Source: a virus (lineage: Duplodnaviria; Heunggongvirae; Uroviricota; Caudoviricetes). From it: a DNA stretch of 40,896 nt. Position 1 is the stretch's first letter; each line of letters opens with the position of its first letter. Shown piece by piece: positions 3,932 through 32,995 of this stretch. Under the pieces are notes generated by a model. It had not been told where the DNA came from, did no database searches, and worked only from the letters and a program-made list of their open reading frames with translations. Both the position numbers and the translations under genes were made by a program. The DNA lies in IMG/VR virus record IMGVR_UViG_3300015188_000003, positions 1-40,896 of that record, one strand, 5' to 3'.

Positions 3932-4702
3932 CTTCTCTGCCCTCAAATATTCCGTCTAAGCCCATGATAACCTCGGCTTCGAACAAACTTATGCCGTAAC
4001 CGGCGACATCACGAAACGCTACCAAATCTTGCCATTTGAGCGCATCGCGCGGGATTATAACGATGGTATCATCTGTTTCGCGCTGTAGGAATTTAATGGC
4101 ACGGTATTTCTCGAACACGTCGATAAGAGAAACGGGGCATTCAGGCCCCGTCGTTTCTTTTATCTGCGGTTCTTTAATCACGCCCATTGCAATCAAAGCC
4201 GCCTGGTGGCCCGCCGCGATGTCGTCGAATTGCTTACGTTTGTGGCGGTCGACAAAGCACCATTGCGCAAATTCATACAGCGCTTTTACTTTTCCGAAAG
4301 TTTCTCGCGGCTATCGGTGTGGTGCTTAACTACGGCTTCTGCCAGTCCGCTGTACTGGTCAAACAGGTTAGCCAGCGCCTCTTTGCTGAACGGTTCGTCG
4401 AACGACCAACCGGTGACGATTTCCACGGCAAGCTGCTTGTTCAGGTCCATCACCCGCCAGCCCTTCTCATCATTATAACGCGCCCAGTTATTCAGTGCCT
4501 CGCACTCTTTATCTAAGGGCGCAAGTTCTTCCGTAAGGCGTCGAATTGCCGTTGTGTAGGCGCGGCCTGCACGAACACCCGCATCACAATCAGGGCCAAT
4601 GACCTGCAGCCATTCGCCGGAGTCTTTACCACTCGGCAGAAGGATAGGCATTTTAGTACCAGCAGCGTGGCGGTCGGCAAAATAAAAATCAGAAAGTTTC
4701 AT
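3924..4702 (-). CDS. tail assembly chaperone G-T fusion via programmed -1 frameshift (inferred)
   Basis: -1 frame is open from 4310 to 3924 and overlaps the last 8 codons of G; mRNA ends GAA-AAG-TAA where tRNA-Lys can slip AAG to AAA; T frame stops 8 nt inside the tape-measure start. Confidence 0.55.
4286..4702 (-). CDS. tail assembly chaperone (G-like)
   Basis: 138-aa ORF immediately upstream of tape measure; overlapping -1 frame open to 3924. Confidence 0.7.
   Translation of the reverse strand: MKLSDFYFADRHAAGTKMPILLPSGKDSGEWLQVIGPDCDAGVRAGRAYTTAIRRLTEELAPLDKECEALNNWARYNDEKGWRVMDLNKQLAVEIVTGWSFDEPFSKEALANLFDQYSGLAEAVVKHHTDSREKLSEK
4289..4295 (-). other. candidate -1 ribosomal slip site (mRNA G-GAA-AAG just before G stop)
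   Basis: Only position where G and T frames overlap with a Lys AAG/AAA slip option. Confidence 0.4.
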
Positions 4703-23616: not shown

Positions 23617-23650
23617 TTCTAAATTCCTTATGTCTCGTTTCGATAAGTGA

Positions 23651-23679
23651 ATAGTAACCTATTATGTTGGGGTGTGCAA
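23651..23679 (-). promoter_or_regulatory. sigma70-like promoter TTGCAC-N17-TACTAT with operator 18-mer (23648..23665), leftward
   Basis: Reverse complement near-identical to 13046..13077. Confidence 0.45.
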
Positions 23680-23714
23680 GAGAATAGTTACGTTGCCGTT
23701 GTGATTCTTTCGTT

Positions 23715-23777
23715 TCTTAAAAGAGTACGCAACGCAGTGGGTGGGCGTTAGCCCACCCCAGCGGAGTGAAGTACTCT
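23715..23777 (-). terminator. two-tier hairpin (outer AGAGTAC/GTACTCT, inner GGGTGGGC-GTTA-GCCCACCC) with U-rich tail; possible 3' end of transcript from element B
   Basis: Inverted repeats read directly; weak U-tract after outer stem on - strand. Confidence 0.35.
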
Positions 23778-23857
23778 CTACCTTGCTCACGGCAACTATA
23801 GAAACTTTTAATTATCAGTGACTTGGATATTTAGGCGGGATTAACAATAGACTTTGA

Positions 23858-23988
23858 CCCTTCCGAAAGCGTCAGCGGAACTACACTCAAGTGCCTAATG
23901 GCACGCGTTGCGTTCCCTGCCGCTCCGCGGTCGCTTGCGATATCTCACAAGCTCAGTGAAGCTTAGCATATTTTCAAGTAAAAGTCAA
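23858..23988 (-). repeat. conserved ~130-bp intergenic element, copy B (candidate sRNA/leader)
   Basis: Aligned with 12850..12979; shared blocks include CCCTTCCGAA.GCGTCAGCG.AACTACACTCA, CCGCGGTCGCTTG and TCACAAGCTCAG...AAAAGTCAA. Confidence 0.6.
23960..23988 (-). promoter_or_regulatory. candidate leftward promoter TTGACT-N17-TAAGCT inside element B
   Basis: Same boxes and spacing as in copy A. Confidence 0.35.
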
Positions 23989-24035
23989 TACCAGTAGCAT
24001 CTTTTGTATTTTAGTAACTTTGTGTGGTGTTTTGG

Positions 24036-24684: not shown

Positions 24685-26933
24685 ATATTGTTTTTGCAAC
24701 GCTGCGTAACACATTCGATAAAAACCCTGTAGCGCGTGAGATGCCGCTCGAGCAGTTTGTGGAGTATGTCTGCGATACATCGAAGCGTTTATCCGTGGAC
24801 CCGTCATGGACTAAGGAAGAGTACGACGCGGCCAAGATTAAACAGAAAGCTATTGCGCCTGTTGGCGGTCGCCGTAAGAACGCTATTCTGGAAGACAGTG
24901 TGGTTAAGTTCGATTTTGACCATCTCAACCGTACTCAGTACCGCGACCTTACCCGCAAATTCAAGAACGCACCGTTCTTCAATATTCTGCATACAACGGC
25001 ATCGCATCAGCATGTGTGTAAAAACGGTGATTACGCCTTCCGCGTTCTCGTACCGGCTCGCACGCCGTTTAACTCTAACGACGCGTGGATGGTCCAACGG
25101 GCTATTTGTGCAGAGTTAGAAATAGATGAAGCCTTGCGTGACCACTGCACGGAAGACGGCAACCGCCTTATCTATCTGCCACATAGAGAGTCAAAGATAA
25201 CGGTTACAGAAGGGCGCGTTATCCGTGCCGAGCGGTACATCAAGAAAGCCGAAGAGATGGGGTTGAGTAAACGTGAAGTTAAGACACTTGCCGCCGATGA
25301 GTATGGGCTTAACGCTGATATAGCGCATTTCTGCGAAGCCGAGCTTGGCCTTGACGCTTTATCTTCCGGGCGCGGGTACGAAGTCCCATGTCCTAACGAA
25401 CATCTGCATACAGGCAAAGGCTCCACAAGCATCATGCTTGATGGTAAAGAAGTGCGCTTTGTGTGCCAGCATACAAACAACGGCGCTTGCACCGAGCTTA
25501 ACCGCCGACAGCATTTGGCCCTGCGTATGTGCGGCCTGCCAGACGAGCTTAACGTAGACAAGCAACCTATCAGTATTAACAGCATTCGTGCGGCTCTGCC
25601 TGATTTACCGGATGAAGAGATTGAAGAACTGCACCGCACAGAGAACGAGGAGCCTGTAACTTGCACGCTGGAAGACCTTGAAGAAGAGGACGAGTTACCA
25701 GAACCGGTAAAGGCTGATTTCGTCGTTGAGGGGTACATGCCGTCGGATTGTATCTGGGATATTGTCGGGGAATCCGGCACGTACAAATCATTCTATACGC
25801 TGGGGATGATGTACCTGAGCGCCGCCGGGTACCGGTTTGCGGGGGCTGACACCCAACGTTGCCACCATTTCTATATTGACGGCGAGGGTGGTGCAGCTAC
25901 ACGAACACGTATTGATGCACTCGCGGCTAAATATGGCGAGGAAGGTAAAGATTATGTACATGTCATCGATATGGGCGAAATACTCGCTACGCATGGTGAT
26001 AAAAAAATTCCAGCTCTAATCCGCAGGATGCGCGAAACCGCAGGGGATGAACCTATTGGCATGGTTGCCTTCGACACCCTTAACCAGACGCTGGCCCTGA
26101 CGATTGATAAGTTCGACGAGAACAGTTCATCAACGGCAATCGGTATGGGTAAAGTTATCGCCATCCTGAAAGAAGTGCGCGATGCAACTAAAGCCGCTGT
26201 CGGTGTCGTTCACCATACTCCGAAGGGCGGAAAGAAAGCCCGCGGCAGTGGAGCATTGTATGCGGGTGTCGACGTGGAACTGACAATCGAACGCGCTACC
26301 GACCGTCAGATAAACGTATACCACTCTAAATTTAAGCACGGTCCGCAACAGAAGACGGTTGGCATGGTACTGGAGTCTGTACAGTTCCGTGAAGCACCGC
26401 CGCCGAAAGAGTACCGCGCGGTTGAGTTCCTCGGTAGCACAGAGGAATACGGCACAATAGTAAACCTCGACCTGCCTGAGCCGCACAAGGCGCTTGTATT
26501 GATGCCGTGGGGCTTCGAGCCATTCAAGACCGACGAGGAGAAAGAGAGGGAAGAAGGGTTAACTAACGAAGGTAAACAAAATGTACGTAAAACCATAGAG
26601 AACGCCGTCAACAGTTCCGAGGCCACGATACTCGCGGCGTTTGAACTGGCGGAGGGGACCTACAACGGCAACGAGGGCATCACGGTATCCGCAGCGAATA
26701 AGCTCGCGCAGTCTGACCCCAACGCAAAGGCGTTTAACTCCAAAGAAGCCATAGAACGCGGGAAGATTAAGAAAATGGTTGAGGCTGGGTATCTTGTTCC
26801 GGGTACTGACGAAAACAATCAGATAATCACAGGCCGTTACAGGCTGAATACCCGGATAACGGATAACAAGATTCCGAAGACACTATACGAACCGAATGAA
26901 ATGCTGGTGGTGACCGAGGATGATTTGGAATAA
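24681..26933 (+). CDS. replicative primase-helicase (primase-like N-terminal region, RecA/DnaB-like ATPase C-terminal region)
   Basis: 750 aa; Walker A-like VGESGTYKS; KFDFDH acidic motif; first large gene of replication block. Confidence 0.65.
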   Translation: MNIVFATLRNTFDKNPVAREMPLEQFVEYVCDTSKRLSVDPSWTKEEYDAAKIKQKAIAPVGGRRKNAILEDSVVKFDFDHLNRTQYRDLTRKFKNAPFFNILHTTASHQHVCKNGDYAFRVLVPARTPFNSNDAWMVQRAICAELEIDEALRDHCTEDGNRLIYLPHRESKITVTEGRVIRAERYIKKAEEMGLSKREVKTLAADEYGLNADIAHFCEAELGLDALSSGRGYEVPCPNEHLHTGKGSTSIMLDGKEVRFVCQHTNNGACTELNRRQHLALRMCGLPDELNVDKQPISINSIRAALPDLPDEEIEELHRTENEEPVTCTLEDLEEEDELPEPVKADFVVEGYMPSDCIWDIVGESGTYKSFYTLGMMYLSAAGYRFAGADTQRCHHFYIDGEGGAATRTRIDALAAKYGEEGKDYVHVIDMGEILATHGDKKIPALIRRMRETAGDEPIGMVAFDTLNQTLALTIDKFDENSSSTAIGMGKVIAILKEVRDATKAAVGVVHHTPKGGKKARGSGALYAGVDVELTIERATDRQINVYHSKFKHGPQQKTVGMVLESVQFREAPPPKEYRAVEFLGSTEEYGTIVNLDLPEPHKALVLMPWGFEPFKTDEEKEREEGLTNEGKQNVRKTIENAVNSSEATILAAFELAEGTYNGNEGITVSAANKLAQSDPNAKAFNSKEAIERGKIKKMVEAGYLVPGTDENNQIITGRYRLNTRITDNKIPKTLYEPNEMLVVTEDDLE

Positions 26934-26960
26934 GTAAAAAGAAAGGGGCATTAAGCCCCT
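26931..26960 (-). terminator. terminator for the regulator gene (AGGGGC-loop-GCCCCT + U-tract on - strand)
   Basis: Hairpin overlaps stop of 26951..27166. Confidence 0.6.
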
Positions 26961-27166
26961 TCACCGAACGCCAGCCACTTGGCGTCTACTTGTAGCACTT
27001 CCGCCAGCTTGAACAGCGTCGCCGGCCGGACGTCCTGAGTTACCCCGAGCGCAAGCTGGTTAATCGCGCCCTGGGAAACGCCAGCCAGGACCGCCAGACG
27101 GCGCTGGGAGATGCCGAGTTCTTTACGGCGTTGTTCTACGCGGATACCTAGTTCAGATGGTTGCAT
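26951..27166 (-). CDS. XRE/Cro-CI-type HTH transcriptional regulator (71 aa)
   Basis: LGISQRRLAVLAGVSQGAINQL helix-turn-helix; divergent from operator-bearing promoters. Confidence 0.8.
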   Translation of the reverse strand: MQPSELGIRVEQRRKELGISQRRLAVLAGVSQGAINQLALGVTQDVRPATLFKLAEVLQVDAKWLAFGEGA

Positions 27167-27186
27167 GTCAATTATTCCTTAGTCAG

Positions 27187-27215
27187 TTGATATGTGAATA
27201 GTACCATATTAATTA
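27187..27215. promoter_or_regulatory. operator 18-mer TGAATAGTACCATATTAA (27195..27212) in divergent region with weak promoter elements
   Basis: Motif family member 25 nt upstream of the regulator start codon. Confidence 0.4.
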
Positions 27216-27230
27216 TTTTAGAAAAGCCCA

Positions 27231-27259
27231 TTGACACGTGAATAGTTCGCTATTATAGT
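27231..27259 (+). promoter_or_regulatory. strong sigma70-like promoter TTGACA-N17-TATAGT with operator 18-mer in the spacer (27239..27256)
   Basis: Consensus -35, 17-bp spacer; operator occupies the spacer. Confidence 0.55.
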
Positions 27260-27290
27260 TAACCCATACCAAACGAGAGGAGAGAAACAA

Positions 27291-27791
27291 ATGTTAGAAC
27301 AATTCTTAAAATTACTGGAACGTTTCGTAGTTGCACATGAACTGATTGCGGCGAACAGCGTTCGCCGTACGGAACTGCCGAAGGCCATTACTGCGCCGTA
27401 TGGTAAAGACGCTGACAGCGGTGATGCAGAAACCGCAACAATCGCGACGACAAAAGAACTTCCAGTAGAAGGTGAAGACGTCGTCGACACTAAACCGGCG
27501 GAAGAAGAGAAGCCGAAACGCAAGCCGCGTAAAGCTAAGGCGGAGGAGCCAGCACCAGAACCGGAAGAGGATAAAGAAGAAGTCGATTACCAGTCTCTGC
27601 GCGACCAGATTCAGGCTATAGACGATGCTATTAACGAAGGCCCGAGCGATGCCGCGTGCGACGACTCTGATGAACTGCTGGAAGAGTTCACCGGCAAGAA
27701 GATGAAGATTGCCGCGATTAAAGACGAAGACCTGGCTGAATACCTGGAGCGCCTGACCGCGATTAAGAACAAGTATTTCGAAGAAGAATAA
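27291..27791 (+). CDS. highly acidic early protein (166 aa), function unknown
   Basis: AGGAG SD; Glu/Asp-rich with PEK-rich linker; first gene after operator-controlled promoter. Confidence 0.75.
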   Translation: MLEQFLKLLERFVVAHELIAANSVRRTELPKAITAPYGKDADSGDAETATIATTKELPVEGEDVVDTKPAEEEKPKRKPRKAKAEEPAPEPEEDKEEVDYQSLRDQIQAIDDAINEGPSDAACDDSDELLEEFTGKKMKIAAIKDEDLAEYLERLTAIKNKYFEEE

Positions 27792-27796
27792 TTTAT

Positions 27797-27817
27797 CGGC
27801 GGCCTTCGGGCCGCTTT
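27797..27817 (+). terminator. weak terminator/attenuator hairpin (GCGGCC-TTCG-GGCCGC + TTT)
   Basis: Tetraloop hairpin right after stop at 27791. Confidence 0.35.
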
Positions 27818-27834
27818 AACAGAGGGTCGGAAAT

Positions 27835-28107
27835 ATGATTTACCAACTCTACCGCGGCATCGACCGACGGGATAACACAGAGGCGTTGTGGCTGTTGCGT
27901 GCGCCGACAGGTGCACACCAGATGGAGGAGATGGCCTACCTCGGAAAAGTACCGAAGCCGAAAGATATAGGCCGTCACCTGTCGCAGATTAAGCGTACGA
28001 CTTTCGTTAAAAGTGACTTTTATGTCTTCGAGTCTATGTATAGCTGGGCGATGCATTGCCAGCACAAAACTCGGCATTTAATTGACCAGTGGGAGGTCAG
28101 GGTATGA
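27835..28107 (+). CDS. hypothetical protein (90 aa)
   Basis: AGAGGG SD; ATGA overlap with nuclease gene. Confidence 0.65.
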   Translation: MIYQLYRGIDRRDNTEALWLLRAPTGAHQMEEMAYLGKVPKPKDIGRHLSQIKRTTFVKSDFYVFESMYSWAMHCQHKTRHLIDQWEVRV

Positions 28108-29345
28108 TTTTGAAAGAACGCGGTGGCAATAACGATGTGCACGCTCTGCTGTCGCCGTCTGGTGCTAAGAAATGGTTGGCGTGCAGTGCATCGCTGGCAT
28201 GTGAAAAAGACATTCCTAACACGTCAGGTAAAGCCGCCATATCAGGCACGGCTATGCACACGATATCTGAGATTCACCTGAATCAGTACATCAAAGGAAC
28301 TGCTTTGCCGTTAGAACGAGAAGTCGGCGCTTACGTGCTGGATGAGGGTAAAGGTCAGATTAAGGCGCTAATCAGTCCGATGAAAGGTGCGGTACTTATT
28401 ACGGCTGACATGATTGAGCAGGTACGCAAGTACACCGACTACTGCAAAGCGATTATTGACGTGGCGACTTACGCTAAGCTGGAGATGCGCGTAAATCTTA
28501 CTGAGGTGCTGCATCCGGGTTACGAAGGCGTTGAGACGTTCGGAACCGCCGACCTTGTAGCCGTGCAGGAACTGGCTAACACCGACGGGCACATGCTCAT
28601 TATCGGTGACCTGAAAACCGGGCGACATCGTGTCGAAGCGAAAGAAAACAAGCAGCTTATGCTTTACGCTCTCGGTGTTTATCGCCGACTCAAGAGACGC
28701 TATAACATCACCGTGGTTCGTCTGGTCATCTTCCAGCCGTATGCTGGAGGCGCGTCGGAATGGGACATCTCGGTTGAAGGTCTGGAGCTGTTCGCTAAGT
28801 TCGCGCGGAAACGAGCGCTGTTAGCCCTTGATGCTTATTCCCGTGGCAAGAAGAACCTTAAAGCGTCGGACTTCAAGCCGTCGGTAGATGGTTGTCAGTG
28901 GTGTCGTTTCTCGGAACAGTGCGCAGCTCGTACAAAAACCGTTAACGCGGTACTGGCGGAAGAACTTGAGGACGACTGTGCGCTGGAACTTACGCCAGAG
29001 CAACTCGTCGCTGAGTATGAGAAGCTGCCGTTGTTGCGCCAGCACATCGACAAGGTTGAGAAAGCGATGGCTGCTGCTTTGCATTCAGGTAAGAAAGTGC
29101 CAGGATACAAACTGGTTGAAGGTCGCCCCGGTAATCGTGCGTGGAAAGATACCGACGCAGTATTCGAGAAGTACGGTACTATGCTGCAAAAGGTAGTTCT
29201 TATGACACCGACCGAAGCGGTTAAAATTGTACCGGAAGAAGAACTGAAAGACTTCATTACCCGTAAGCCCGGTGCGCCATGCGTCGCAACGGCGGATGAC
29301 ACACGTCCTGAGTGGAATCAAGTTACAGAGGAGGATTTAGAATGA
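28104..29345 (+). CDS. PD-(D/E)xK nuclease, Cas4/RecB-like with Cys cluster (DUF2800-like)
   Basis: GDLKTG and QLMLYALG nuclease motifs; C-terminal CQWCRFSEQC; ATG 28104 (track start 28089 alternative). Confidence 0.7.
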   Translation: MILKERGGNNDVHALLSPSGAKKWLACSASLACEKDIPNTSGKAAISGTAMHTISEIHLNQYIKGTALPLEREVGAYVLDEGKGQIKALISPMKGAVLITADMIEQVRKYTDYCKAIIDVATYAKLEMRVNLTEVLHPGYEGVETFGTADLVAVQELANTDGHMLIIGDLKTGRHRVEAKENKQLMLYALGVYRRLKRRYNITVVRLVIFQPYAGGASEWDISVEGLELFAKFARKRALLALDAYSRGKKNLKASDFKPSVDGCQWCRFSEQCAARTKTVNAVLAEELEDDCALELTPEQLVAEYEKLPLLRQHIDKVEKAMAAALHSGKKVPGYKLVEGRPGNRAWKDTDAVFEKYGTMLQKVVLMTPTEAVKIVPEEELKDFITRKPGAPCVATADDTRPEWNQVTEEDLE

Positions 29346-29545
29346 TTCAAGTAAATGAAATGCCGACTGATAAAGATTTTTTGATGGTATGGCGCTGGGA
29401 TGGGTATCTACACTCGGAATCGTTCACGTTCTTGAACGGTACCATGATGCGATACGACCCTGTAGAGGATGAGTTCGAACCGGCCAATATGCTTAATTTC
29501 GAGAACATAATCCCTATTGCAAAATTTTATTTGACACATGAATAG
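29342..29545 (+). CDS. hypothetical protein (67 aa)
   Basis: ATGA overlap with nuclease stop; last codons overlap promoter 29531..29559. Confidence 0.6.
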   Translation: MIQVNEMPTDKDFLMVWRWDGYLHSESFTFLNGTMMRYDPVEDEFEPANMLNFENIIPIAKFYLTHE

Positions 29546-29559
29546 TTAGCTATTATAGT
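29531..29559 (+). promoter_or_regulatory. sigma70-like promoter TTGACA-N17-TATAGT with operator 18-mer (29539..29556), overlapping the 3' end of the upstream CDS
   Basis: Same architecture as 27231..27259. Confidence 0.5.
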
Positions 29560-29617: not shown

Positions 29618-30244
29618 ATGGGACTGAAATTAAATCTGCGTAAAGTAAACACTGCCTGGGTTAACGTATTCGAACGCGAAAAAGACCGTGAAAACGACGA
29701 TGGCTCAATCACTAAAGGTCAGTACAGCGCTACTATTATCCTGCCGTCCGACCACGCGCAAATCGACGCGCTCTACGACACCGTTTACGCGGTAGTCGAA
29801 GAAGCGTTAGGCGCCGCCGCTGCCGAGAAATGGATGAAGTCCAACTACGGCGAAGGTAAGCACATGGATAAATGTGCGATTAAAGACATTGCCGAGCGCG
29901 ACAATCCGTTCGAAGACTTCCCGGAAGGCTTCTACTTCAAAGCGAAGGCACAGAAACAGCCTCTGATTGTAACCTCTAAAAAAGGTGAAACTCAGGTAGA
30001 GCCTGACTTCAACGTTGAAGGCGAACAGATTGAAGGTGGACAGGTTTACAGCGGCTGCGTTGCCAACGTAAGCGTGGAAGTCTGGTTTAGCCAGAAATAC
30101 AAAGTTCTCGGTGTTAACCTGCTGGCAATTAAATACGTCGGCGAAGGTAAAGCGTTTGGTGGTTCTAAAGTTGCCGCCAGCGTCAACGACCTGGAAGACG
30201 ACGAAGAAGATGAAGCACCTCGCCGCGAACGTCGCCGCCGTTAA
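29618..30244 (+). CDS. DUF2815-like putative ssDNA-binding protein
   Basis: 208 aa with acidic C-terminal tail, between Cas4-like nuclease and DNA polymerase. Confidence 0.55.
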   Translation: MGLKLNLRKVNTAWVNVFEREKDRENDDGSITKGQYSATIILPSDHAQIDALYDTVYAVVEEALGAAAAEKWMKSNYGEGKHMDKCAIKDIAERDNPFEDFPEGFYFKAKAQKQPLIVTSKKGETQVEPDFNVEGEQIEGGQVYSGCVANVSVEVWFSQKYKVLGVNLLAIKYVGEGKAFGGSKVAASVNDLEDDEEDEAPRRERRRR

Positions 30245-32721: not shown

Positions 32722-32995
32722 GGGGCGCGTGCAGAAATACGCAAAAGAGCGATTCGAGGCCCTGGGAGGCCTCGTACGCAAATTGTCGTACGAGGGGCGT
32801 TCCGGCGCCCCCGACCTGCTGGTAATTCTCCCTGGTGGCATCATCTGGTTCGTCGAGGTTAAGAAAGACGAAAACACGAAGCCGGACCCGCACCAGTTAC
32901 GAGAGCACGAGCGGATGCGTAAACGTGGTGCAAATGTTTTTGTCGTTGGTTCGTTTAAACAGGTTGACGACCTAATAGCGGGCTATTATAGTTAA
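32708..32995 (+). CDS. VRR-NUC domain nuclease
   Basis: GAPDLLVILPGGIIWFVEVKK...PHQ resembles VRR-NUC core. Confidence 0.7.
   Translation: MSTPEGRVQKYAKERFEALGGLVRKLSYEGRSGAPDLLVILPGGIIWFVEVKKDENTKPDPHQLREHERMRKRGANVFVVGSFKQVDDLIAGYYS

What the first reader, a model, noticed from the sequence alone, without database searches (positions are those of the whole stretch)
27291..27791. Highly acidic early protein directly downstream of the strongest operator-controlled promoter
The 166-aa product is Glu/Asp-rich with a PEK-rich low-complexity linker and an acidic C-terminal domain. It is the first gene transcribed from the consensus TTGACA-N17-TATAGT promoter that is divergent from the regulator gene. 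The charge pattern resembles DNA-mimic anti-restriction proteins (Ocr/ArdA-like), but there is no detectable sequence similarity, so it could equally be a replication accessory factor.
Basis: inference. Interest (0 to 1): 0.55.

Follow-up and report, generated by a model that had tools for sequence, protein, structure and literature searches.

The report
Conserved acidic replication-module accessory protein
The acidic 166-residue protein is real and sits behind a consensus promoter, but it is a core gene of unknown function in a common group of E. coli/Salmonella phages, and close relatives that carry it are still heavily cut by restriction enzymes, so it is most likely a partner-binding accessory of the phage DNA replication/recombination genes and not an Ocr-like anti-restriction protein.

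Summary
ORF 27291-27791 (+) encodes a 166-aa protein with pI 4.46 and net charge -20. It lies behind TTGACA-N17-TATAGT and is divergent from a 71-aa HTH regulator gene.

The window is a Kagunavirus-like (Guernseyvirinae) siphophage. The protein belongs to phrog_3127 (function unknown), which has over 2000 homologues and is present in essentially every Guernseyvirinae genome and in Dhillonvirus. It is always the first gene of the operon that carries the DUF2800 exonuclease, the T7 gp2.5-type SSB and PolA.

AlphaFold gives three parts:
- a nearly invariant N-terminal helix (residues 1-23);
- a 76-aa disordered charged linker with two conserved short motifs;
- an acidic three-helix C-terminal domain.

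Proteins with the same layout lie directly upstream of the DUF2800 exonuclease in Paenibacillus, APSE and gut Firmicutes phages.

The Ocr/ArdA reading is not supported. There is no profile or fold match. Published plating data show that Bas70 and Bas71 are restricted about 10^5-fold by EcoKI, and Bas71 was checked here to carry a 166-aa orthologue.

Best reading (confidence about 0.5): a non-enzymatic adaptor or hub of the replication-recombination module. The function is inferred, not shown. Its layout closely parallels PopZ.

The parts
27231..27259 (+). Sigma-70-type promoter TTGACA-N17-TATAGT that drives the acidic gene
   Evidence: 11 of 12 consensus positions. The same architecture recurs at 29531-29559 and 32964-32992.
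27241..27254 (.). 14-bp palindrome AATAGTTCGCTATT in the promoter spacer; candidate operator of the HTH regulator
   Evidence: 13 matches with at most 1 mismatch in the window, against 1.09+-1.01 in shuffles..
27197..27210 (.). Second, imperfect copy of the palindrome, inside the upstream repeat unit TTGATATGTGAATAGTACCATATTA
   Evidence: direct repeat D1, 44-bp spacing.
26951..27166 (-). Divergent 71-aa Cro/CI-type HTH regulator gene
   Evidence: PF01381 HTH_3, E=1.2e-12..
27278..27282 (+). Shine-Dalgarno sequence AGGAG, 8 nt before the ATG
   Evidence: Read directly from the sequence.
27291..27791 (+). CDS of the 166-aa acidic protein (phrog_3127 family)
27291..27359 (+). Codons 1-23: nearly invariant amphipathic N-terminal helix MLEQFLKLLERFVVAHELIAANS
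   Evidence: AF2 helix at residues 2-22. Mean top-residue frequency 0.91 over 255 family members. R11, A15, E17 and A20 are invariant.
27360..27587 (+). Codons 24-99: disordered charged linker
   Evidence: pLDDT is below 50 for most of residues 35-95. Linker length is 61-97 aa across the family, median 76.
27456..27500 (+). Conserved short motif ELPVEGEDVVDTKPA (residues 56-70) inside the linker
   Evidence: Top-residue frequency 0.82, against 0.30 in the flanking linker; alignment.
27504..27539 (+). Conserved basic block EEKPKRKPRKAK (residues 72-83) inside the linker
   Evidence: A similar EEKPKRQKK occurs in Paenibacillus phage WildCape gp58.
27588..27788 (+). Codons 100-166: acidic three-helix C-terminal domain (net charge -11), with invariant R104 and a KY[FY]-x-E-acidic end
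   Evidence: AF2 helices at 100-116, 120-134 and 145-164, pLDDT about 90.
27798..27815 (+). GC-rich hairpin (7-bp stem, UUCG loop) 7 nt after the stop codon, followed by TTTAA; candidate attenuator or mRNA-stabilising end
   Evidence: A hairpin stands at the same place with different stem sequences in JL1 (followed by a T-run), L006 and L007.
27835..28107 (+). Co-conserved 90-aa gene (phrog_4965, function unknown) that overlaps the exonuclease start
   Evidence: Homologues lie at the same place in L004, L006 and JL1.
28104..29345 (+). DUF2800 / PD-(D/E)XK exonuclease, the downstream gene of the operon
   Evidence: PF10926, E=7.8e-67; phrog_69.

Best explanation
The gene encodes a non-enzymatic, partner-binding accessory protein (an adaptor or hub) of the phage's T7-type replication-recombination module. 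That module comprises the helicase-primase, DUF2800 exonuclease, gp2.5/Enc34-type SSB-annealase and family-A polymerase.

The protein is made first, and probably in excess, from an operator-controlled consensus promoter. A hairpin just after its stop codon may attenuate transcription into the enzyme genes.

Proposed mode of action:
- The invariant N-terminal amphipathic helix docks onto a conserved partner.
- The roughly 76-residue disordered linker acts as a flexible tether. It carries two conserved short motifs, an acidic PVEGEDVxDTKP motif and a basic EEKPKRKPR patch.
- The acidic three-helix C-terminal domain provides a second interaction or self-association surface.

What is shown: the gene, its conservation, its position, its predicted architecture, and the absence of any enzyme or known-family signature.

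What is inferred: that it acts by binding module proteins, and which ones.
For: **Core gene**
- tblastn finds it in 485 phage records. The neighbouring exonuclease is found at 60% identity or more in 456 records.
- The collections hold over 2000 homologues, nearly all on contigs of 41-46 kb.

**Fixed position, even at 30-36% identity**
- It is always the first gene of the operon that runs through small ORFs to DUF2800, the Enc34-type SSB and PolA. The operon is divergent from an HTH gene and/or an AAA_25 helicase-primase gene.
- The same holds in Dhillonvirus JL1 gp18, which matches phrog_3127 at E=1.5e-50.

**Layout typical of interaction hubs**
- AF2 predicts an N-terminal helix, a disordered linker and a three-helix bundle.
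- Conservation is concentrated in the helix (0.91) and in two linker motifs (0.82 and 0.74), against 0.30 for the rest of the linker.

**Same layout next to the same exonuclease in very distant phages**
- An HMM of the C-terminal domain alone was run against 488 six-frame ORFs from five distant loci. It ranks the ORFs directly upstream of DUF2800 in Paenibacillus phage WildCape (E=0.001) and APSE-7 (E=0.0011) first and second. The next hit has E=0.33.
- WildCape gp58 hits phrog_3127 at E=3e-5, and APSE-7 at E=0.0059.
- The Firmicutes-prophage family (phrog_408-like) folds into the same helix pattern.
- The Foldseek viral hit lists of the two models share six proteins.
- Hosts this diverse argue against a host-specific target.

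**Possible link to the module's own proteins**
- Helicase-primase and exonuclease both end in an [ST][DE][DE]DL tail. These are the only 2 of 489 stop-to-stop segments in the window that do so. The tail is conserved in L005, L006 and JL1 (both proteins) and in TS6 (exonuclease, the only one of the two read there).
- The SSB ends in a conserved Arg-rich tail.
- The acidic protein carries similar GEDV and DEDL motifs and a basic patch. A charge-based docking network like the one known for T7 gp2.5, gp4 and gp5 is therefore plausible. The T7 network is established knowledge and is summarised in PMC5686142.

**No competing signature**
- There is no match in Pfam, NCBIfam, PADLOC or PDB sequences.
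Against: - No interaction was tested or predicted here, because no multimer modelling was available.
- The homology to the distant upstream-of-exonuclease proteins is weak. hhalign gives E of 4e-4 to 5e-3 with low probabilities, and the Xfas53 and Dulem proteins are not recovered by the C-terminal-domain HMM.
- A three-helix bundle is a generic fold.
- In the window the ORF directly abutting the exonuclease is the 90-aa gene, not this one.
- Being first behind a strong promoter and highly acidic is also what a stoichiometric inhibitor of a host protein would look like.
- Conservation within Enterobacterales phages alone cannot separate a phage partner from a host partner.
Confidence: 0.5

Rival explanations
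1. Inhibitor of a host nuclease, working like lambda Gam or T7 gp5.9. An abundant acidic early protein would block RecBCD so that the phage's linear DNA and its own exonuclease/annealase recombination system can operate.
For: - The gene order (acidic protein, exonuclease, annealase) parallels lambda gam-bet-exo (lambda gene order from my own knowledge; one search shows only that gam adjoins bet).
- No Gam, Abc2 or gp5.9 homologue is annotated in the fully annotated relative phiSD1.
- Kagunaviruses show variable sensitivity to the P2 Old system: Bas71 EOP 0.04-0.29, and Bas73 forms no plaques (PMC11990801).
- In lambda, Old depends on Gam-mediated RecBCD inhibition (the Spi phenotype; own knowledge).
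- The protein is acidic, first in its operon, and followed by a hairpin that could raise its level relative to downstream genes.
Against: - hhalign against lambda Gam gives E=0.47. There is no Pfam Gam match.
- The same layout lies next to DUF2800 in phages of Paenibacillus and gut Firmicutes, which I understand to use AddAB rather than RecBCD (own knowledge). This makes a conserved RecBCD-specific role unlikely.
- The N-terminal helix differs between Kagunavirus and Dhillonvirus although both infect E. coli.
- The Old phenotype cannot be assigned to this gene.
Confidence: 0.12
2. Ocr/ArdA-type DNA-mimic anti-restriction protein that blocks type I R-M enzymes.
For: - The protein is acidic (pI 4.46, net charge -20).
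- It is the first gene behind a consensus promoter.
- Its length is similar to that of ArdA.
- The window has 3 EcoKI sites, against 7.3 expected, a mild depletion that is not significant.
Against: - Bas70, and Bas71, which carries a 166-aa orthologue, plate at about 1e-5 on EcoKI and about 2e-4 to 1e-3 on EcoCFT_I. Both are type I systems. The two phages are equally sensitive to type II and type III systems (text).
- There is no Pfam hit. hhalign against Ocr gives E=0.22.
- The fold search returns only generic bundles.
- 14% of residues are basic, including a KPKRKPRKAK block, against 5% in Ocr.
- Only 67 residues form the acidic folded domain.
Confidence: 0.03
3. A regulatory or host-takeover factor unrelated to replication. 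Examples are a partner or antagonist of the divergent HTH regulator, a binder of RNA polymerase or sigma factor, or an inhibitor of another defence system.
For: - The gene is adjacent to, and divergent from, the regulator gene in most lineages.
- It is controlled by the same palindrome that marks about 13 sites genome-wide.
- Modular proteins rich in disordered sequence are common among phage takeover factors (general knowledge).
Against: - In L004 the HTH gene is absent while the acidic gene keeps its place at the head of the exonuclease operon.
- In distant phages the analogous ORF overlaps the exonuclease start, not a regulator gene.
- There is no match in PADLOC or in any Pfam DNA-binding or anti-sigma family.
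- Being a core gene is atypical for accessory anti-defence genes.
Confidence: 0.15

Closest known systems
phrog_3127 (records often name it '13.88 kDa late protein', a name traced to Salmonella phage MB78, UniProt Q9T1Z8)
   Same: - Full-length match at E=7.5e-66.
- Same length, layout and genomic position in Jerseyvirus, Kagunavirus, Dhillonvirus JL1, Serratia phage Tsm2 and Pantoea phage AH01.
   Different: Nothing essential. The window copy is an ordinary member, with a 100%-identical protein already in the collection (P0001). The family has no assigned function, and I found no evidence behind the 'late protein' name.
Small charged proteins directly upstream of DUF2800 exonuclease genes in other phages (phrog_408, 3709, 18562, 33976; some records name them 'rRNA biogenesis protein rrp5')
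   Same: - Short N-terminal structured element, K/E/P/A-rich disordered linker, and a C-terminal domain of about 50-65 aa with the same helix pattern.
- Position at or overlapping the exonuclease start.
- Cross-hits in PHROGs and with the C-terminal-domain HMM.
- Overlapping Foldseek hit lists.
   Different: - Sequence similarity is marginal (hhalign E=0.004 between the two family profiles).
- The N-terminal elements are unrelated.
- Their C-terminal domains are roughly neutral, whereas here the domain has net charge -11.
- In the window a 90-aa gene lies between this gene and the exonuclease.
PopZ, the polar organising hub of Caulobacter (an analogy of layout only)
   Same: - PopZ has an N-terminal client-binding helix (1-23), an acidic Pro-rich disordered region (24-101) and a three-helix C-terminal oligomerisation domain (PMC9512792).
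- Here the parts are a helix (1-23), a disordered region (24-99, family median 76 aa) and a three-helix domain (100-166).
- Both proteins are strongly acidic and about 170 aa long.
   Different: - No Pfam match to PopZ.
- The linker here is less acidic (net charge per residue -0.11, against -0.28) and holds a basic block and a conserved motif.
- Oligomerisation and condensate formation are untested.
T7 Ocr (gp0.3) and ArdA DNA mimics
   Same: Acidic, small, and encoded first behind an early promoter.
   Different: - No sequence or fold match.
- Three times the fraction of basic residues.
- Nearly half of the protein is disordered.
- Close relatives that carry the gene are fully restricted by type I systems.
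Acidic C-terminal tails of T7-type replication proteins (gp2.5, gp4), which dock on partner proteins
   Same: - The module here has a gp2.5/Enc34-type SSB.
- Helicase-primase and exonuclease carry conserved acidic tails.
- The acidic protein carries similar acidic-hydrophobic motifs.
   Different: - Here the acidic elements sit in a separate protein with its own folded domain.
- The SSB tail ends in an Arg-rich stretch instead of an aromatic residue.
- No binding data exist.

Membership tests
phrog_3127 (uncharacterised phage family) | Full-length profile match | tested here: met
   E=7.5e-66, residues 1-166 against profile positions 1-177 of 178.
phrog_3127 (uncharacterised phage family) | First gene of the operon carrying the DUF2800 exonuclease, Enc34-type SSB and PolA | tested here: met
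   Window; L004-L007; JL1.
Ocr (T7 gp0.3) | Sequence or profile similarity to Ocr | tested here: not met
   No Pfam family at E<=0.1. hhalign of A3 against T7 Ocr gives E=0.22 over 6 columns.
Ocr (T7 gp0.3) | Compact all-folded acidic DNA-mimic fold with very few basic residues | tested here: not met
   - Residues 23-99 are predicted disordered.
- Basic residues make up 14%, against 5% in Ocr.
Ocr (T7 gp0.3) | Protects the phage from type I restriction | tested here: not met
   Published EOP values, read here: Bas71 (78%-identical orthologue) plates at 0.9-3e-5 on EcoKI, and Bas70 at 0.5-1.3e-5 (PMC11990801). The window phage itself was not tested.
ArdA | Profile match to the ArdA family and its three-domain fold | tested here: not met
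Lambda Gam / T7 gp5.9 (RecBCD inhibitors) | Sequence or profile similarity | tested here: not met
   hhalign against lambda Gam gives E=0.47. No Pfam hit. gp5.9 was not compared directly.
Lambda Gam / T7 gp5.9 (RecBCD inhibitors) | Inhibits RecBCD | not testable with these tools
   The only indirect hint is the variable Old sensitivity of Kagunaviruses.
PopZ-like hub proteins | Sequence membership in the PopZ family | tested here: not met
   No Pfam family at E<=0.1.
PopZ-like hub proteins | Layout of an N-terminal helix, an acidic disordered region of about 78 aa, and a three-helix C-terminal domain | tested here: met
   AF2; family linker median 76 aa; PopZ boundaries from PMC9512792.
PopZ-like hub proteins | Self-oligomerisation, condensate formation and client recruitment | not testable with these tools
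   No multimer modelling or experiment was available.
Superfamily of ORFs upstream of DUF2800 (phrog_408 / 3709 / 18562-like) | Homologous C-terminal domain | tested here: inconclusive
   **For**
- The C-terminal-domain HMM ranks the WildCape and APSE-7 upstream ORFs first and second of 488 (E about 1e-3).
- PHROG cross-hits at 3e-5 and 5.9e-3.
- Same helix pattern.
- Shared Foldseek hits.

**Against**
- hhalign probabilities of 7-36%.

The most novel reading that the evidence does not exclude
The protein, and the wider set of 'helix, charged disordered linker, three-helix domain' proteins encoded next to DUF2800 exonuclease genes, is a phage-encoded PopZ-like hub.

In this reading the C-terminal domain self-associates. 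The charged linker sets the material properties. The invariant N-terminal helix and the linker motifs recruit the helicase-primase, exonuclease, SSB and polymerase, possibly through their conserved [ST][DE][DE]DL and Arg-rich tails. The result would be a replication-recombination compartment inside the infected cell.

This would be a previously unrecognised, widespread organiser of phage DNA replication in small siphophages.
Probability: 0.12. Interest if true: 0.7.

Novelty: new variant of a known kind. Interest (0 to 1): 0.35.

Why it matters
- Guernseyvirinae and Dhillonvirus phages are among the most commonly isolated E. coli and Salmonella phages, and they are used in therapy and biocontrol. 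This is a core gene at the head of their replication operon, and it has no assigned function.
- If it is an adaptor or hub of a T7-type replisome-recombination machine, it would explain how the module's proteins, with their conserved charged tails, are brought together.
- It would also give a function to a set of similarly built 'hypothetical' proteins that sit next to DUF2800 exonucleases in phages of Proteobacteria and Firmicutes.
- For annotation, the result argues against labelling such acidic early proteins as anti-restriction factors on charge alone. It also flags the names '13.88 kDa late protein' and 'rRNA biogenesis protein rrp5' as uninformative.

Tried and rejected
- **Sequence searches for the acidic protein.** Pfam, NCBIfam and PADLOC scans, PDB sequence searches with the single protein and with the family profile: nothing beyond phrog_3127.
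- **Foldseek against AFDB50.** The library was unavailable.
- **Direct profile comparison** with T7 Ocr and lambda Gam: no similarity.
- **Origin of replication inside the gene** (by analogy with lambda O). There are no iterons or tandem repeats in 26900-27900, and GC skew simply follows the direction of transcription. Dropped.
- **Transmembrane or membrane-anchor reading of the N-terminal helix.** It has six charged or polar-ionisable residues and specific invariant residues (R11, E17), so a protein-protein contact is more likely. Not pursued.
- **Expression timing from the K1B4 transcriptome paper.** The orthologue is vB_Eco_K1B4_003, judged from its coordinates, but its temporal class is not given in the text or the held supplements.
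- **Literature searches** on Guernseyvirinae or Jerseyvirus with RecBCD or anti-defence, and on MB78: nothing on this gene.
- **Truncated 'N-helix only' proteins** (P0132, P0138, P0143, P0144). They look like frameshifted or chimeric gene calls, and I did not use them.
Full report
**1. Observation**

The ORF at 27291-27791 (+) is present as described. It starts at ATG and encodes 166 codons. An AGGAG Shine-Dalgarno sequence lies 8 nt upstream. The product has 44 Asp+Glu and 24 Lys+Arg, net charge -20 and pI 4.46.

The consensus scan finds TTGACA-N17-TATAGT at 27231-27259, matching 11 of 12 positions. The 71-aa gene on the opposite strand (26951-27166) is a Cro/CI-type HTH protein (PF01381, E=1.2e-12).

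A 25-nt unit that contains the -35 hexamer plus GTGAATAGT...TATTA is repeated 44 bp upstream. Its core is a 14-bp palindrome, AATAG-N4-CTATT.

Two details need correction:
- The promoter is not unique. The same promoter with the same palindrome stands at 29531-29559 (before the SSB gene) and, with TTGACG, at 32964-32992.
- The protein is not an orphan (section 2).

**2. What the window is, and how common the gene is**

The region is 86-90% identical at the DNA level to Kagunavirus phages of the Guernseyvirinae, such as Bas71, Bas76 and NTEC3.

The protein matches PHROG family 3127, of unknown function, over its full length at E=7.5e-66. It has no match in Pfam, NCBIfam, PADLOC or PDB sequences.

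The 5.8-billion-protein collection holds over 2000 homologues, including an identical one, nearly all on contigs of 41-46 kb. At 50% clustering the family collapses to 26 representatives.

tblastn finds the protein in 485 phage records: Salmonella and Escherichia Guernseyvirinae plus Serratia, Pantoea and Enterobacter relatives. The adjacent exonuclease is found at 60% identity or more in 456 records. The gene is therefore core, not accessory.

Many records call it '13.88 kDa late protein'. That name traces to Salmonella phage MB78, UniProt Q9T1Z8. I found no supporting data for it.

**3. Anatomy**

AlphaFold2 with a 33-sequence alignment predicts:
- a helix at residues 2-22 (pLDDT about 79);
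- no structure from residue 23 to 99 (pLDDT mostly below 50);
- a three-helix domain at 100-116, 120-134 and 145-164 (pLDDT about 90).

Conservation across 255 family members, as mean top-residue frequency:

| Segment | Residues | Frequency |
|---|---|---|
| N-terminal helix MLxKFLxLLERFVVAHELIAANS | 1-23 | 0.91 |
| First half of the linker (many indels) | 24-54 | 0.30 |
| Motif ELPVEGEDVxDTKPA | 55-69 | 0.82 |
| Basic/acidic linker segment (contains EEKPKRKPR) | 70-99 | 0.74 |
| C-terminal domain | 100-166 | 0.64 |

In the N-terminal helix R11, A15, E17 and A20 are invariant. In the C-terminal domain R104 is invariant and the end is KY[FY]xE-acidic.

Linker length ranges from 61 to 97 residues, with a median of 76. 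All members are net acidic, from -9 to -24. Two representatives (P0129, P0145) carry a duplicated C-terminal domain.

**4. Genomic context**

In relatives at 30-36% identity the gene is always the first gene of an operon that continues with small ORFs, a DUF2800/PD-(D/E)XK exonuclease, an Enc34/T7 gp2.5-type SSB-annealase and a family-A polymerase. The operon is divergent from an HTH gene and/or the AAA_25 helicase-primase gene.

Dhillonvirus JL1 has the same arrangement. Its gp18 is a clear family member once the mis-annotated start is moved to Met61 (phrog_3127, E=1.5e-50). Its gp19 is homologous to the window's 90-aa gene.

A GC-rich hairpin with a UUCG loop lies 7 nt after the stop codon, at 27798-27815. 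A hairpin occupies the same place with unrelated stem sequences in JL1 (followed by a T-run), L006 and L007. This suggests attenuation or mRNA stabilisation, which would favour this protein over the downstream enzymes.

**5. Wider relatives**

In five very distant phages that share the DUF2800 / DUF2815 / PolA module, the ORF directly upstream of the exonuclease, and usually overlapping it, has a similar layout. It has a short N-terminal element, a K/E/P/A-rich linker (WildCape even has EEKPKRQKK) and a C-terminal helical domain with the pattern [FY]xV[KR]x[IV]xx[IL]x[DE]E....[FL].

Statistical support is moderate:
- An HMM of the window family's C-terminal domain alone was run against 488 six-frame ORFs from those five loci. 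It ranks the upstream ORFs of Paenibacillus phage WildCape (E=0.001) and APSE-7 (E=0.0011) first and second, and the next hit has E=0.33.
- WildCape gp58 hits phrog_3127 at E=3e-5, and APSE-7 at E=0.0059. These proteins also hit phrog_408, 3709 and 18562, the families of the Dulem virus protein.
- hhalign gives E of 4e-4 to 5e-3, but with low probabilities.
- AlphaFold2 of the Firmicutes-prophage family (alignment A5, named 'rRNA biogenesis protein rrp5' in UniRef) gives the same layout and the same helix pattern.
- The Foldseek hit lists of the two models in BFVD share six proteins.

I regard a common superfamily as likely but not proven. All members are uncharacterised.

**6. The anti-restriction reading**

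Ocr has 34 acidic and 6 basic residues (5% basic). This protein is 14% basic, with a KPKRKPRKAK block, and only 67 residues form the acidic folded domain.

The strongest evidence comes from the completed BASEL collection paper. It reports that its Kagunavirus isolates 'display a high sensitivity to RM systems' (PMC11990801). Values from its S1 Data:

| Phage | EcoKI (type I) | EcoCFT_I (type I) |
|---|---|---|
| Bas71 (4 EcoKI sites and 3 EcoCFT_I sites) | 0.9-3.1e-5 | 1.6-7e-4 |
| Bas70 | 0.5-1.3e-5 | 1e-4 to 1e-3 |

Sensitivity to type II and type III systems is similar. Bas71 encodes a 166-aa orthologue with 78% amino-acid identity (H36).

A functional Ocr/ArdA-type inhibitor should largely abolish type I restriction, so this reading is effectively refuted for close relatives. 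The caveats are that the window phage itself was not tested and that the R-M systems were expressed from plasmids.

**7. Most likely function**

The following features all point to a non-enzymatic, partner-binding component of the replication-recombination module:
- core status and a fixed position at the head of the exonuclease / SSB / polymerase operon;
- a possible attenuator after the gene;
- a 'helix, disordered linker with short motifs, small helical domain' layout;
- analogous ORFs next to the same exonuclease in phages of unrelated hosts.

A host-specific inhibitor fits these features less well.

A further observation suggests how the protein might connect. Helicase-primase and exonuclease both end in an [ST][DE][DE]DL tail (VVTEDDLE and QVTEEDLE). 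These are the only 2 of 489 stop-to-stop segments in the window with such an end. The tail is conserved in L005, L006 and JL1 (both proteins) and in TS6 (exonuclease, the only one of the two read there). The SSB ends in an acidic run followed by a conserved Arg-rich tail, APRRERRRR.

In T7-type systems acidic tails are the docking elements between the SSB, helicase-primase and polymerase (background in PMC5686142). The acidic protein carries GEDV and DEDL motifs and a basic patch, so it could plug into such a network. This step is inference. No interaction was modelled or measured.

**8. Rivals**

- **Gam-like RecBCD inhibitor.** It remains possible. The gene order resembles gam-bet-exo, no known RecBCD inhibitor is annotated in a relative, and sensitivity to Old is variable. 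However, there is no similarity to Gam. The wider distribution across hosts that I understand to lack RecBCD argues against it. The N-terminal helix also differs between Kagunavirus and Dhillonvirus, although both infect E. coli.
- **Regulatory or takeover role.** It cannot be excluded. The link to the exonuclease operon persists where the HTH gene is absent.

**9. Comparison with known systems, and novelty**

By membership, the protein is an ordinary member of an uncharacterised family (phrog_3127).

By layout, the closest characterised analogue I can name is PopZ:

| Part | PopZ (PMC9512792) | This protein |
|---|---|---|
| N-terminal helix | 1-23, client-binding | 1-23 |
| Disordered region | 24-101, acidic | 24-99 |
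| C-terminal domain | three helices, oligomerisation | 100-166, three helices |

There is no sequence relationship. The linker here is less acidic and carries a basic block. Self-association is untested. A phage-encoded PopZ-like organiser of replication is the most novel reading not excluded. I give it about 0.12.

**10. Verdict**

- The anti-restriction interpretation is not supported.
- The 'replication accessory' alternative is favoured, at a confidence of about 0.5.

The finding is a well-conserved hypothetical gene, not an oddity. Interest is moderate to low (0.35). It is raised somewhat by the possible superfamily tied to DUF2800 modules, by the conserved tail motifs, and by the PopZ-like layout.

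Noticed in passing
window 4826, 12971, 13062, 14865, 20248, 22612, 23650, 24841, 27197, 27241, 29541, 32974, 38434 (each 14 bp): The palindrome AATAG-N4-CTATT occurs 13 times with at most 1 mismatch, against 1.09+-1.01 in shuffles (0 of 100 shuffles reach 13). Most copies lie in promoter-like intergenic DNA. It is probably the operator of the 71-aa HTH regulator, which would make that protein a genome-wide regulator and not a local one.
   Followed up: partly
window 27231-27259, 29531-29559, 32964-32992: Three near-identical rightward promoters, TTGAC(A/G)-N17-TATAGT, each have the palindrome in the spacer. They split the replication region into at least three operator-bearing units. A second motif class, GTGAATAGTAmCCTATTATrTTGGGGTG, occurs at 23650 (+), 4826 (-) and 13062 (-).
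   Followed up: partly
window 26910-26933 and 29322-29345 (the C-terminal codons of helicase-primase and exonuclease): Both proteins end in a shared acidic tail, [ST][DE][DE]DL (VVTEDDLE and QVTEEDLE). These are the only 2 of 489 stop-to-stop segments with such an end. The tail is conserved in L005, L006 and JL1 (both proteins) and in TS6 (exonuclease, the only one of the two read there), but is absent from APSE-7, Xfas53, WildCape, Bacuni_F1 and Dulem virus. It is probably a docking motif for a common partner.
   Followed up: partly
window 30190-30244 (C-terminus of the SSB): The gp2.5/Enc34-type SSB ends in an acidic run followed by an Arg-rich tail (DLEDDEEDEAPRRERRRR). The tail is conserved in L006 and JL1, and is unlike the aromatic-ended acidic tails of T7 gp2.5 or the Firmicutes-phage homologues.
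   Followed up: no
window 27798-27815: A 7-bp GC stem with a UUCG tetraloop stands directly after the acidic gene and is followed by only TTT. A hairpin at the same position with different sequences occurs in JL1, L006 and L007, but not in TS6.
   Followed up: partly
L012 (Xylella phage Xfas53) 6933-6968: gp11 is the ORF that overlaps the exonuclease start. Near its C-terminus it carries ERIEGFYIAHER, which resembles the invariant N-terminal helix core LLERFVVAHEL of the window family (hhalign E=0.009 over 12 columns). This could be a shared partner-binding helix or chance.
   Followed up: no
L010 (Escherichia phage JL1) 3769-4491: The annotated start of gp18 is about 60 codons too early. The family-type N-terminus MFEQIVNLITRGVVALETIA begins at Met61 (locus position 3949).
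   Followed up: yes
window 27835-28107 and its homologues in L001 and L002: The co-conserved 90-aa gene (phrog_4965) has no match in Pfam, the PDB or NCBIfam. phiSD1 labels it 'phosphoheptose isomerase', and EM1 labels an inserted neighbouring gene 'NinX'. Neither label has support. The gene overlaps the exonuclease start (ATG at 28104, stop at 28107), which suggests translational coupling.
   Followed up: partly
P0129 and P0145 (L005 5158-5784): Two family representatives carry a tandem duplication of the C-terminal three-helix domain. This fits a modular interaction or valency-tuning domain.
   Followed up: no
window 15822, 21168, 40204: The window has only 3 EcoKI sites (AAC-N6-GTGC), against 7.3+-2.6 expected. 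This is a mild depletion at most, and 98 of 100 shuffles have 3 or more sites.
   Followed up: no
window 23617-24023: A non-coding stretch of about 400 bp lies between the leftward gene block and the rightward early genes. It coincides with the minimum of cumulative GC skew and carries one perfect palindrome copy. It is a candidate control or origin region.
   Followed up: no
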